Source: Stx2-converting phage Stx2a_F422. Taken from it: a stretch of 63,253 nucleotides of DNA. A program made the position numbers. Shown in pieces: positions 24,001 to 27,000 of this stretch. Each line of letters starts with the position of its first letter. The first letter of the stretch is position 1. The DNA is taken from the sequence record AP012531; one strand, given 5' to 3'.

Positions 24001-27000
24001 TTTAATAATGACTGAGGCATAACCTGATTCGTGGTATGTGGGTAACAAGTGTAATCTGTGTCACAATTCAGTCAGTTGACAGTTGCCTGTCAGACTGAGC
24101 ATTTGTTAAAAAAATTTCGCATGGTGAATCCCCCTGTGTGGAGGGGCGACTGGTGAAAAATCCTTGCTTGTGATTCATTATCGACACGGGTTCGGTGGTA
24201 CCAGGCCGAACTCACCGGGAGGCACCCGGCACCATGCAGTATACAGAGATTAGGCATATACCAAGGCCTCTCATAGCAGGGGCCTTTTTACATGTAAAAA
24301 AGCCCGAGTGGGTTCGGGCAATTGCATGAGATACTCGTTTTAATAATCGAAATCATTTTAACCAGGATTCATAAGGCTGCGCAACTGCGCGGCCTTTTTC
24401 GTATTTCGGGCTGTAGTCTTCCTTCTGCCATTGTCCTGTAACTTCCGGACTTCAGCCCGCTCCTTATTTTACTCACAATATTATCCCGGCCGGGAGGATT
24501 CATGGCATTTAAACACTATGATGTTGTCAGGGCGGCGTCGCCGTCAGACCTTGCGAAACGAATAACTCAAAAACTGAAGGAAGGGTGGCAGCCTTATGGT
24601 AGTGCGCTGATTTCGACAGCTGGTTATGGTGCGGAGTTCATCCAGCCAGTTGTGAGTGAGGGGAGCATCTCATCACCAGAGGAGCCAGGCAACCGTCCGA
24701 CGACCTCAGCGCCTTCTGTTGCGCCAGAATATTACTATGTGATCGCGCTTGCTGGTCAGTCCAATGGTATGTCATACGGTGAGGGACTGCCATTGCCGGA
24801 TACATTCGACAGCCCTGATCCACGTATTAAACAGTTAGCGCGTCGCAGTACGGTGACACCGGGCGGTGCAGTATGCAAATATAACGACATCATTCCGGCG
24901 GACCATTGTCTGCATGATGTGCAGGACATGAGCCGTCTTAACCATCCGAAAGCGGACCTGTCAAAGGGGCAGTACGGAACCGTGGGGCAGGGGCTGCATA
25001 TCGCCAAAAAACTGCTGCCGTTTATACCGGCGAATGCGGGCATTCTGCTGGTTCCGTGCTGTCGTGGTGGTTCAGCGTTCACCACCGGAGCCGATGGCAC
25101 ATACAGTGACGCGAGTGGTGCCTCGGAGAATTCAACCCGCTGGGGTGTGGACAAGCCGCTGTATAAGGACCTTATCGGTCGAACAAAAGCAGCACTGAAG
25201 AAGAATCCGAAAAATGTGCTGTTTGCCGTGGTGTGGATGCAGGGGGAATTTGATTTTGGCGGTACGCCGGTAAATCACGCCGCACAGTTTGGTGCGCTGG
25301 TTGATAAATTCCGTGCAGACCTGGCGGATATGGCAGGCCAGTGCGTCGGTGGCTCTGCTGGCGGTGTTCCCTGGATATGCGGGGACACGACGTATTTCTG
25401 GAAGCAGAAGAACGAATCCACGTACCAGACGGTGTATGGCAGCTATAAAAACAAAACGGAAAAGAATATCCATTTCGTACCGTTCATGACGGATGAGAAC
25501 GGGGTGAATGTGCCGACGAACAAACCGGAAGAAGACCCGGACATTCCGGGTATCGGATATTACGGTTCGAAATGGCGTGACAGCTCAGCCACCTGGACGT
25601 CACAGGACAGGGCGAGCCATTTCAGTTCATGGGCTCGCCGCGGGATTATTTCCGACCGTCTGGCAACGGCGATTTTGCGCCATGCGGGAAGAGTGGCGCT
25701 AAACGCGGGGGCATCATCGACAGTATCAGAGGTGCGCCCGTCATCGCCTTCCGGTGCAGAAGCCACAGGCGTCACAACACTGCTCTCTTACCTTGCCAGC
25801 GAGTCAGAGGGAAGCCTGAAAGTACAGGGATGGTCAGCCAGTGGCGGCAGGGCAGAAGTGGTCAGCGATGCGGAGGGAACCGGAGGTAAGGCAGTGAAGC
25901 TGACCAAGGAAGCCGGTAAAAGCAGCTGGGTGCTGGAGTACGCCGCGGGCAACGGTGCGGCTCTGTTACAGAAAGGGGGGCAGATTCGCTGCCGCTTTAA
26001 GGTTTCGGGAGCGCTGGCTGCGAACCAGTATGTTATGGCGTTTTACTGGCCGGTATCTTCACTGCCACAGGGCGTTGCCCTGACCGGAGACGGGGGGAAT
26101 AACCTGCTGGCAGCGTTCTACATCCAGACAGATGCAAAAGACCTGAATGTGATGTACCACAATGCGAAAGTGGCGACAAACAACCTGAAACTGGGAACCT
26201 TTGGCGCATTTGATAACGAATGGCATACGCTGGCTTTCCGCTTTGCCGGGAATAACAGCCTGCAGGTGACGCCGGTTATTGATGGTCAGGATGGCACACC
26301 GTTCACGCTGACGCAGTCACCGGTCAGTGCCTTTGCGGCGGATAAACTGCATGTGACAGACATTACCAGAGGTGCGACTTACCCGGTACTGATAGACAGC
26401 ATTGCGGTGGAAGTGAACAGCACAGACACTGCGGCATGATAAAAAAACCGCCAGCGACAGGAATGGACGCTGGCGGTGGTGATACCTATGGAGAAAAAAT
26501 AAAGGAACGATACTTTCGTACTCTGGTTTTTAATGAAAACAGTTCTTATTGTCAACAATAACGGAAAGAAATTATGACATTTCTGAACCAGTTAATGCTG
26601 TACTTCTGTACGGTGGTCTGTGTGCTGTATCTCCTTTCGGGTGGGTACAGGGCCATGCGTGACTTCTGGCGCAGACAGATTGACAAAAGGGCCGCTGAGA
26701 AAATCAGCGCCAGTCAGTCAGCCGGAAGCAAACCCGAAGAGCCGCTCATTTAGCGGCAACTTTCTTAATCACACCTTTCGACGAGAAAATCCCATGTCAG
26801 AAATTACATCCCTGGTCACTGCAGAGGCAGTGAAGGACGTCCTGCGCTCTGAAGAAGTCCGGAGCGCACTGAAACAGAAACTTCGCCATAACCTGGAAGC
26901 GCGTCTTGATGCAGAAGTGGATGCCATTCTGGATGAACTGCTTGGTGTACAGGCAGAGCCACCGACTGAAGCGGGAGATACCACCGCAGAGAGCGGTGAA

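What the first reader, a model, noticed from the sequence alone, without database searches (positions are those of the whole stretch)
24502..26439. Large esterase-like ORF immediately downstream of stx2B
A 645-aa gene with an esterase-like N-terminal half and lectin-like C-terminal half occupies the conserved post-stx2 position and has its own flanking hairpins. The 933W-family homologue is described as a sialate O-acetylesterase, which would link toxin and mucin-sugar use in one late transcript.
Basis: partly seen in the sequence, partly recalled or inferred. Interest (0 to 1): 0.4.

Follow-up and report, generated by a model that had tools for sequence, protein, structure and literature searches.

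The report
Known Stx-phage sialate esterase NanS-p

Summary
The ORF is real and sits at exactly the stated coordinates (24502..26439, + strand, 645 aa). The window is a complete 933W-type Stx2a phage genome. The protein is 645/645 identical to 933W L0105 (z1466, NanS-p) and to phi24B vb_24B_21 (gp84).

It has three domains rather than two halves:
- DUF1737, aa 3-53.
- A SASA/SGNH esterase, aa 72-393. It is 56.5% identical to the solved NanS/YjhS structure 3PT5, and all catalytic blocks are intact (Ser87, His373).
- A lectin-like jelly roll, aa 423-640, 100% identical to PDB 6YP6.

Held papers report Neu5,9Ac2 and mucin de-O-acetylation by this enzyme, a growth advantage for lysogens, and co-induction with stx2a. 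A 2026 preprint reports that DUF1737 anchors the protein on capsid hexons.

"Immediately downstream" is loose. A 486-nt spacer separates the gene from stx2B and holds the known convergent sRNA pair STnc100/EcOnc27 (+) and AsxR (-), plus a + strand terminator-like hairpin. The downstream hairpin looks like a - strand terminator with a sub-threshold Esr41-like match.

Interest is low.

The parts
24502..26439 (+). nanS-p coding sequence (645 aa plus stop), equal to 933W L0105/z1466 and phi24B vb_24B_21/gp84
   Evidence: ORF list. 645/645 identical to 933W L0105 and to phi24B vb_24B_21. It is the only copy in the window by tblastn.
24492..24498 (+). Shine-Dalgarno-like GGGAGGA, 3 nt before the ATG
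   Evidence: Read from the sequence. The start codon is supported by the phi24B cryo-EM model, which begins at Ala2.
24508..24660 (+). DUF1737 domain (aa 3-53), reported in phi24B as the capsid-hexon-binding decoration domain; includes Tyr42
   Evidence: Pfam PF08410, 4e-18. Preprint 10.64898/2026.04.10.717836. Y42, G54 and S57 are present.
24664..24678 (+). SISSP motif (aa 55-59) in linker 1, the proposed proteolytic processing site
   Evidence: Motif position. Processing was proposed in the phi24B preprint. Inferred here, not tested.
24715..25680 (+). SASA/CE6-type SGNH esterase domain (aa 72-393)
   Evidence: phmmer versus 3PT5 NanS/YjhS, 2e-117; 179/317 aligned pairs identical, 56.5%. Pfam SASA. 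Blocks GQSN 85-88, RGGSAF 188-193, MQGEFD 246-251 and R370-A-S-H373.
24760..24762 (+). Codon for Ser87, the predicted nucleophile (block I GQSN)
   Evidence: TCC read at these positions. Corresponds to Ser19 in block GQSNA 17-21 of 3PT5. [quoted passage not shown]
25618..25620 (+). Codon for His373, the predicted general base (block V R-A-S-H, no Asp, as in NanS)
   Evidence: CAT read at these positions. Corresponds to His301 of 3PT5. NanS lacks the block V Asp.
25741..25749 (+). SSP motif (aa 414-416) in linker 2, the proposed second processing site between the esterase and the C-terminal domain
   Evidence: Motif position. Autoproteolysis is described for the identical phi24B protein.
25768..26421 (+). 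C-terminal lectin-like jelly-roll domain (aa 423-640; DUF6645), a proposed carbohydrate-binding module
   Evidence: 100% identical to PDB 6YP6 'NanS-p' over 218 aa. Pfam DUF6645, 1e-74. Aromatic residues Y510, Y515, Y540 and F611 are present.
24090..24295 (+). STnc100-family sRNA gene in the stx2B-nanS-p spacer, probably EcOnc27/sRNA103; ends in a terminator hairpin
   Evidence: Rfam RF02076, 207.7 bits against a gathering score of 47, full length. Terminal hairpin folded, z -3.2. The convergent dyad AsxR/EcOnc27 lying 3' of stx2B is described in PMC4104026 and PMC7873438. Equating it with EcOnc27 is my inference.
24297..24349 (-). AsxR anti-sRNA gene (sponge of FnrS), convergent with STnc100
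   Evidence: Rfam RF02703, 88.1 bits against a gathering score of 63. Its 3' end is 282 nt after the stx2B stop, exactly as published. Terminator-like site 24319..24302 on the - strand.
24373..24406 (+). Intrinsic-terminator-like hairpin plus T-run, about 100 nt upstream of the nanS-p start
   Evidence: Scan: 10 pairs, 7 of them G-C, tail TTTCGTATTT. Fold -18.6 kcal/mol, z -3.9. Its function was not tested.
26447..26477 (.). GC-rich hairpin directly after the nanS-p stop codon. It is preceded by A7 on the + strand, so it reads as stem plus U7 on the - strand.
   Evidence: Fold -21.8 kcal/mol, z -6.2, with 0 of 200 shuffles as stable. There is no T-run after it on the + strand.
26439..26516 (-). 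Candidate - strand sRNA with weak resemblance to Esr41; unconfirmed
   Evidence: Rfam RF02676, 28.1 bits against a gathering score of 102; E 0.004 in the 821-nt search. Below threshold, so it is only a candidate.
21979..22006 (+). Late promoter pR' (as annotated in 933W), the presumed source of the stx2AB-nanS-p-lysis transcript
   Evidence: 933W feature 20666-20693 plus the constant offset of 1313. It coincides with a promoter-like hit.
22775..24015 (+). stx2A and stx2B (Stx2a), the upstream neighbours
   Evidence: ORFs. 100% identity to 933W stxA2/stxB2.
27143..27896 (+). Lysis genes S (P21-type holin, 27143..27358) and R (lysozyme, 27363..27896), downstream on the same strand
   Evidence: Pfam PF04971, 7e-33, and PF00959, 6e-25. 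933W annotation.
35914..37128 (+). Major capsid protein, the reported docking partner of the DUF1737 domain
   Evidence: Pfam Phage_capsid_3, 1.5e-88. 404/404 identical to phi24B vb_24B_29.

Best explanation
This is nanS-p, the prophage-borne sialate O-acetylesterase of a 933W-type Stx2a phage.

Shown here:
- The gene encodes a three-domain protein identical to 933W L0105 and phi24B gp84.
- The central domain is a SASA/SGNH hydrolase of the NanS type. It has a Ser87-His373 dyad, Gln86 with the QGE motif forming the family's inverted oxyanion hole, and no block V Asp.
- The C-terminal domain is the solved lectin-like jelly roll.
- The protein has no signal peptide or membrane segment.

From held papers on the identical or near-identical protein:
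- It removes O-acetyl groups from free Neu5,9Ac2 and from mucin-bound mono-, di- and tri-O-acetylated sialic acids.
- This lets E. coli grow on Neu5,9Ac2.
- Its mRNA rises 1 to 2.4 logs on mitomycin C induction, in parallel with stx2a.

From one preprint on phi24B, which has the same protein and the same capsid protein:
- The N-terminal DUF1737 forms hexamers that plug the central hexon of each T=9 facet.
- The full-length enzyme is therefore displayed on fresh virions. It is later clipped near SISSP (aa 55-59) and SSP (aa 414-416).

Inferred:
- Transcription comes from pR' by Q antitermination, reading through the terminator-like hairpins in the stx2B-nanS-p spacer.
- The enzyme reaches the gut lumen only through phage lysis, together with toxin and virions. 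There it benefits surviving kin, and possibly the virion's passage through mucus.
For: Coordinates and ORF. Domains. 3PT5 at 2e-117 and 6YP6 identical. 56.5% identity to NanS. Catalytic blocks GQSN 85-88, RGGSAF 188-193, MQGEFD 246-251 and RASH 370-373, mapped on the published 3PT5 blocks.

100% nucleotide identity of 22700-26700 to 933W. Protein identical to L0105 and to phi24B vb_24B_21. MCP identical to phi24B.

No hydrophobic N-terminus: maximum Kyte-Doolittle value 0.85 (window of 15) in the first 60 aa, and 1.38 (window of 19) over the whole protein.

Literature: activity, growth advantage and mucin de-O-acetylation; co-induction with stx2a; capsid decoration and processing.

Gene order pR'-tRNAs-stx2AB-nanS-p-S-R is all on the + strand. 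No promoter-like site was found on the + strand in the spacer.
Against: - Nothing here measures enzyme activity. The primary biochemical papers (Nübling 2014, Saile 2016, Feuerbaum 2018, Rangarajan 2011, Franke 2020) are not held and are cited only through reviews.
- The capsid-decoration result rests on one non-peer-reviewed preprint on phi24B. In its map the esterase and lectin domains were not visible.
- Carbohydrate binding by the C-terminal domain has no experimental support, as the review says explicitly.
- Two + strand terminator-like hairpins lie between stx2B and nanS-p. A single transcript therefore depends on Q-mediated read-through, which has not been shown directly.
- Pfam's SASA match covers only aa 152-275, at a modest 5e-10.
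Confidence: 0.9

Rival explanations
1. The main selected role is phage-centred. The capsid-displayed esterase plus lectin module lets the virion bind and de-O-acetylate sialomucin. This would work like the receptor-binding and receptor-destroying haemagglutinin-esterases of corona- and influenza C viruses, and would concentrate the phage in mucus or free it from mucus. Feeding the lysogen would be a side effect.
For: The identical protein is one of the most intense virion bands in phi24B and is full length on fresh particles. The DUF1737 hexamer sits on capsid hexons, and the MCP is identical in this window. The gene is a late gene, made only in cells that lyse. The idea is raised in the preprint's discussion.
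Against: No experiment shows mucus binding or altered phage diffusion or infectivity. Lectin activity is unproven. NanS-p genes also occur in phages with unrelated capsids, for example YYZ-2008, where the Tyr42 loop differs. They also occur in many cryptic prophages that make no virions, with up to 15 places per genome.
Confidence: 0.25
2. The physiological substrate is bacterial rather than host. The enzyme would remove O-acetyl groups from acetylated O-antigen or polysialic-acid capsule, exposing the phage receptor during adsorption or modifying the surface of neighbouring cells.
For: The review proposes this as an open possibility. Virion display would place the enzyme at the cell surface during adsorption.
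Against: All reported activities are on sialic acids and mucin glycans. The closest solved relative, NanS, is most active on 9-O-acetyl Neu5Ac. The protein sits on capsid facets rather than on the tail, which is a poor position for receptor access.
Confidence: 0.07
3. nanS-p has its own expression unit, insulated from stx2 by the spacer terminators, and is expressed in the lysogen independently of Q and prophage induction.
For: There are two + strand terminator-like hairpins between stx2B and nanS-p, namely the STnc100 terminator and 24373-24396. GC content jumps from 44.2% in stx2AB to 55.3% in nanS-p, which suggests separately acquired modules. Basal nanS-p expression was measurable without induction in all but one tested strain.
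Against: No sigma-70-like promoter was found on the + strand between 24016 and 24501. Expression rises 1 to 2.4 logs with mitomycin C, in parallel with stx2a, and the one strain without stx2a expression also lacked nanS-p expression. Basal signal can come from spontaneous induction.
Confidence: 0.1

Closest known systems
NanS-p of phage 933W (L0105, z1466, 933Wp42) and vb_24B_21/gp84 of phage phi24B
   Same: Identical in sequence, 645/645 aa. Same position between stx2B and the lysis cassette. Same flanking sRNA genes.
   Different: Nothing in the gene differs. Relative to the 933W record, the window carries an extra IS3-family element far upstream (about 9004-10265) that does not touch this locus.
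Chromosomal NanS (YjhS) of E. coli, PDB 3PT5, encoded in the nanCMS operon
   Same: Same SASA/SGNH fold. 56.5% identity over aa 72-393. Same four blocks, including the Ser-His dyad without the block V Asp and the QGE oxyanion arrangement. Same substrate class.
   Different: NanS is a single-domain protein in a sialic-acid-inducible chromosomal operon. NanS-p adds an N-terminal DUF1737 and a C-terminal jelly-roll domain, and it sits in a phage late region.
NanS-p alleles of other prophages, e.g. Stx1 phage YYZ-2008 gp42
   Same: Same three-domain layout and same position after stxB. An STnc100 (+) and anti-sRNA (-) dyad lies in the spacer, and a hairpin preceded by an A-run follows the stop codon.
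   Different: Only 53% identical. The loop carrying Tyr42 is replaced. The C-terminal domain is diverged. The host phage has an unrelated capsid protein, and the esterase-to-holin spacer is unrelated.
Viral haemagglutinin-esterases (coronavirus, torovirus, influenza C)
   Same: They work alike in outline: an SGNH-type sialate O-acetylesterase is combined with a lectin domain and displayed on a virus particle.
   Different: Not the same family. No Pfam Hema_esterase match appeared at E up to 1. The oxyanion-hole architecture differs. Lectin activity of the NanS-p C-terminal domain is unproven.

Membership tests
SASA / CE6 sialic-acid-specific acetylesterase family (PF03629), NanS subgroup | SGNH-hydrolase fold | tested here: met
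   aa 72-393 align end to end with the solved SGNH esterase 3PT5 at E 2e-117, 56.5% identity. The Pfam SASA hit is above its gathering score. No structure prediction was run because homology to a solved structure is the stronger evidence.
SASA / CE6 sialic-acid-specific acetylesterase family (PF03629), NanS subgroup | Block I GQSN with the nucleophilic Ser and the adjacent Gln used in the inverted oxyanion hole | tested here: met
   GQSN at aa 85-88 (Ser87, Gln86). Family definition from PMC9487903 and PMC10792757.
SASA / CE6 sialic-acid-specific acetylesterase family (PF03629), NanS subgroup | Block II Gly and block III (H)QGE motif in place of the classical GxND | tested here: met
   RGGSAF at 188-193 and MQGEFD at 246-251, identical to the 3PT5 blocks.
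SASA / CE6 sialic-acid-specific acetylesterase family (PF03629), NanS subgroup | Block V catalytic His; in NanS the usual Asp is absent (R-x-S-H) | tested here: met
   R370-A-S-H373-F-S. RASH is the variant reported for NanS-p in PMC10462455.
SASA / CE6 sialic-acid-specific acetylesterase family (PF03629), NanS subgroup | Hydrolysis of 9-O-acetyl (and 7/8-O-acetyl) sialic acids | not testable with these tools
   Reported for the identical 933W protein and other NanS-p alleles in papers cited by PMC8065619, PMC8319020 and PMC10462455. The primary papers are not held.
NanS-p (prophage-borne three-domain esterase) | Architecture of DUF1737, SASA and a C-terminal jelly-roll domain | tested here: met
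   Pfam DUF1737, SASA and DUF6645. C-terminal domain identical to 6YP6. The architecture is defined in PMC10462455.
NanS-p (prophage-borne three-domain esterase) | Location in the lambdoid late region, downstream of Q/pR' (and of stx where present) and upstream of the lysis genes | tested here: met
   Order pR'-tRNAs-stx2AB-nanS-p-DUF1378-DUF826-S-R on the + strand.
NanS-p (prophage-borne three-domain esterase) | Q-dependent late expression, co-induced with stx | not testable with these tools
   Mitomycin C and norfloxacin induction are reported. A junction-spanning transcript and Q dependence are not documented in the papers I could read.
DUF1737 capsid-decoration domain (as described for phi24B gp84) | N-terminal helix plus three-stranded sheet that forms a hexamer in the central hexon pore, anchored by Tyr42 | not testable with these tools
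   The sequence is identical to the protein modelled (Ala2-Ser57) and the MCP is identical. The claim transfers by identity but rests on one preprint.
Carbohydrate-binding module / lectin | Demonstrated glycan binding | not testable with these tools
   The fold is solved (6YP6) and the four aromatic residues of the proposed site are present. The review states there is no experimental evidence of binding.
Viral haemagglutinin-esterase family | Hema_esterase-type split esterase domain with an inserted lectin domain | tested here: not met
   No Hema_esterase match in Pfam at E up to 1. The esterase here is contiguous and of SASA type. The resemblance is functional only.

The most novel reading that the evidence does not exclude
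The full-length enzyme displayed on fresh capsids might act as a phage 'haemagglutinin-esterase'. The lectin-like domain would tether virions to O-acetylated sialomucin, the esterase would destroy that tether, and timed self-clipping at the two SSP linkers would then release enzyme and phage. Toxin phage spread in the colon mucus layer would then depend on nanS-p. This idea is already sketched in the 2026 phi24B preprint, so even if true it would be a confirmation rather than a discovery from this scan.
Probability: 0.2. Interest if true: 0.5.

Novelty: already known. Interest (0 to 1): 0.1.

Why it matters
The gene matters biologically. It couples Shiga toxin release to access to O-acetylated mucin sialic acids, and possibly to phage behaviour in mucus. 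All of this is already in the literature for this exact sequence. The value of this check is to close the finding and to correct its details: three domains, a 486-nt spacer carrying sRNA genes, and exact identity to 933W and phi24B.

Tried and rejected
- NCBIfam gave no hit. PHROGs matched only families of unknown function.
- The primary papers were requested by PMC id and are not held, so their results are cited through reviews. These were Saile 2016 PMC5038053, Feuerbaum 2018 PMC7106450 and Rangarajan 2011 PMC3149194.
- I tested whether the downstream hairpin element is a PasA/PasC sRNA, since these are reported between prophage esterase and holin genes. The preprint's supplement holds no sequences. 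The esterase-to-holin spacer of the representative PasA phage YYZ-2008 has no BLAST similarity to the window. It is therefore not assigned.
- The Esr41 match (28 bits against a gathering score of 102) is sub-threshold, and I treat it only as a candidate.
- My first estimate of about 65% identity to NanS was wrong. The computed value is 56.5%.
- I did not run structure prediction, fold search or the large protein-database searches. Identity to characterised proteins and to two solved structures already answers the question.
- A pseudogene or chance-ORF reading is rejected: the frame is intact, all catalytic blocks are present, and the protein is identical to ones detected by proteomics.
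Full report
**Observation.** The ORF list shows an ATG-initiated ORF at 24502..26439 on the + strand encoding 645 aa, exactly as reported. stx2A (22775..23734) and stx2B (23746..24015) lie upstream on the same strand. A GGGAGGA motif ends 3 nt before the start codon. The gene is not strictly "immediately" downstream of stx2B, because a 486-nt spacer separates them.

**Identity of the window and the gene.** The stretch 22700-26700 is 100% identical to phage 933W (AF125520) and to many other Stx2a phages. Of 366 matching phage records, 230 cover at least 80% of it. The first 25 kb match 933W at 99.8% and the last 25 kb match several Stx phages at 100%. The window is therefore a whole 933W-type Stx2a phage genome. 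In the 933W record the ORF is L0105, "similar to YjhS". The translated protein is identical to L0105 and 645/645 identical to vb_24B_21 of phage phi24B. There is only one copy in the window.

**Domains.**
- Pfam finds DUF1737 (aa 3-53, 4e-18), SASA sialic-acid-specific acetylesterase (aa 152-275, 5e-10, above the gathering score) and DUF6645 (aa 489-607, 1e-74).
- Against solved structures, aa 423-640 are identical to 6YP6 ("NanS-p"). [quoted passage not shown] I computed 179 identities in 317 aligned pairs, or 56.5%.
- The four SGNH blocks listed for 3PT5 in PMC10792757 (GQSNA, RGGSAF, MQGEFD, R-x-SHFS) are all present. They lie at GQSN 85-88, RGGSAF 188-193, MQGEFD 246-251 and R370-A-S-H373-F-S.
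- The protein therefore has the Ser-His dyad without the block V Asp, and the Gln/QGE inverted oxyanion hole. Reviews describe these as typical of NanS and the SASA family.
The fold is established by strong homology to a crystal structure.
- The protein has no hydrophobic N-terminus or membrane segment. It can leave the cell only by lysis; that step is my inference.

**What is already published for this exact protein.**
- The STEC-phage review PMC8065619 states that z1466 encodes a Neu5,9Ac2 acetylesterase. It also states that several NanS-p alleles of EDL933 and O104:H4 are active, that they allow growth on Neu5,9Ac2, and that they de-O-acetylate mucin glycans. PMC8319020 agrees.
- PMC10462455 analysed 59 Stx2a phages. 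All have the order Q-stx2a-nanS-p-S. The paper defines the three domains on 933W NanS-p, notes the conserved SGNH blocks and the four aromatic residues of the proposed sugar site, and shows 1 to 2.4 log induction of nanS-p by mitomycin C in parallel with stx2a.
- A 2026 preprint on phi24B reports that gp84, this same sequence, is an abundant virion protein. It is full length (about 70 kDa) on fresh particles and clipped on storage. Its DUF1737 domain (Ala2-Ser57) forms hexamers in the central hexon of each T=9 facet, anchored by Tyr42. Cleavage is proposed near SISSP and at a second SSP linker.
- The window protein has Y42, G54, S57, SISSP at 55-59 and SSP at 414-416. The window's major capsid protein (35914..37128, Phage_capsid_3) is 404/404 identical to that of phi24B. 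That result therefore transfers by identity, with the caveat that it comes from a single preprint.

**The flanking hairpins.** The spacer is not empty.
- Rfam gives a full-length STnc100 match at 24090..24295 (+), at 207.7 bits against a gathering score of 47. It also gives AsxR at 24297..24349 (-), at 88.1 bits against 63.
- The AsxR 3' end lies 282 nt after the stx2B stop, exactly as published. Tree et al. describe convergent sRNAs EcOnc02 (AsxR) and EcOnc27 lying 3' of stx2B in the Stx2 phage Sp5. I infer that the STnc100 hit is EcOnc27/sRNA103.
- Both sRNAs end in terminator hairpins.
- A third hairpin at 24373-24396 (+) has a 10-bp stem followed by a T-run (-18.6 kcal/mol, z -3.9). It looks like a + strand intrinsic terminator about 100 nt before the nanS-p start.
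- No promoter-like site was found on the + strand in the spacer. This fits transcription from pR' (21979-22006, from the 933W annotation plus a constant offset of 1313) with Q-mediated read-through. Read-through itself is inferred, not shown.
- Directly after the stop codon lies a strong hairpin at 26447-26477 (-21.8 kcal/mol, z -6.2). On the + strand it is preceded by A7 and not followed by Ts, so it reads as a - strand terminator.
- cmscan aligns 26439..26516 (-) to Esr41 at only 28 bits against a gathering score of 102. This is a candidate convergent sRNA and nothing more.
- A 2026 preprint places PasD/STnc100 upstream and PasA/PasC downstream of prophage esterase genes, about 2,170 bp apart. 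That is close to the 2,144 bp seen here. However, the esterase-to-holin spacer of the representative PasA phage YYZ-2008 shows no similarity to the window.

**Distribution.** In 5,426 complete E. coli genomes, 2,409 have a match to 24016-26580 and 601 cover at least 80% of it, with up to 15 places per genome. Many hits cover only the DUF1737 part. RefSeq names the gene "SASA family carbohydrate esterase" or "DUF6645 domain-containing protein". This is a common prophage gene.

**Mechanism and rivals.** The best-supported account is a late-expressed, lysis-released and capsid-displayed sialate O-acetylesterase. It makes O-acetylated sialic acids usable and makes sialoglycans sensitive to sialidases. 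What remains open is which beneficiary drives selection:
- surviving lysogen kin, which is the classical view;
- the virion in mucus, a haemagglutinin-esterase-like role raised in the preprint;
- access to bacterial surface receptors, raised in the review.

An independent, Q-independent expression unit is a minor rival. The spacer terminators and the GC jump from 44.2% to 55.3% suggest it, but the co-induction data argue against it.

**Verdict.** Interest is low.

Noticed in passing
window 26439-26516 (- strand), overlapping the nanS-p stop codon: A strong hairpin (26447-26477) followed by U7 on the - strand, with a sub-threshold Esr41-like alignment (28 bits against a gathering score of 102) that keeps a UUUUCUCCAU stretch. 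It may be an unannotated sRNA convergent with nanS-p. It is not similar to the PasA-bearing spacer of phage YYZ-2008.
   Followed up: partly
window 24373-24406 (+ strand): An intrinsic-terminator-like hairpin (10 pairs, then a T-run) between the AsxR gene and the nanS-p start. It is not covered by any Rfam family above threshold and is not annotated in the 933W record. It could limit Q-independent read-through into nanS-p, or it could overlap the AsxR promoter region.
   Followed up: partly
window about 9004-10265 (+ strand): An IS3-family insertion element (OrfA HTH_Tnp_1, OrfB rve integrase core). It accounts for the constant 1313-nt offset of this window relative to the 933W record. It lies in the early region next to the N gene.
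   Followed up: partly
L003 (NC_011356, Stx1 phage YYZ-2008) 6202-8520: The same module order occurs in a phage with an unrelated capsid: stx1B, STnc100 (+), an AgvB-like anti-sRNA (-), a 616-aa NanS-p (53% identical), then a hairpin preceded by an A-run right after the stop. DUF1737 is conserved except for the loop that carries the capsid-anchoring Tyr42 in phi24B. This raises the question of whether capsid binding is general or has been re-tuned for each capsid type.
   Followed up: partly
window 22433-22681 (+ strand): Three tRNA genes lie between pR'/tR' and stx2A. 933W annotates them as ileZ, argN and argO. They are followed by a terminator-like hairpin at 22697-22716, just upstream of stx2A.
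   Followed up: no
window 26574-27066 (+ strand): Two small conserved ORFs of unknown function lie between nanS-p and the holin: DUF1378 (26574..26753, 59 aa) and DUF826 (26794..27066, 90 aa). 933W annotates a longer 148-aa frame, L0106, starting at the GTG at 26620.
   Followed up: partly
E. coli genomes: Many complete E. coli genomes match only the first ~100 nt of the gene and annotate stand-alone 'DUF1737 domain-containing protein' genes. This fits DUF1737 being a portable capsid-decoration module that is only sometimes fused to an esterase.
   Followed up: no
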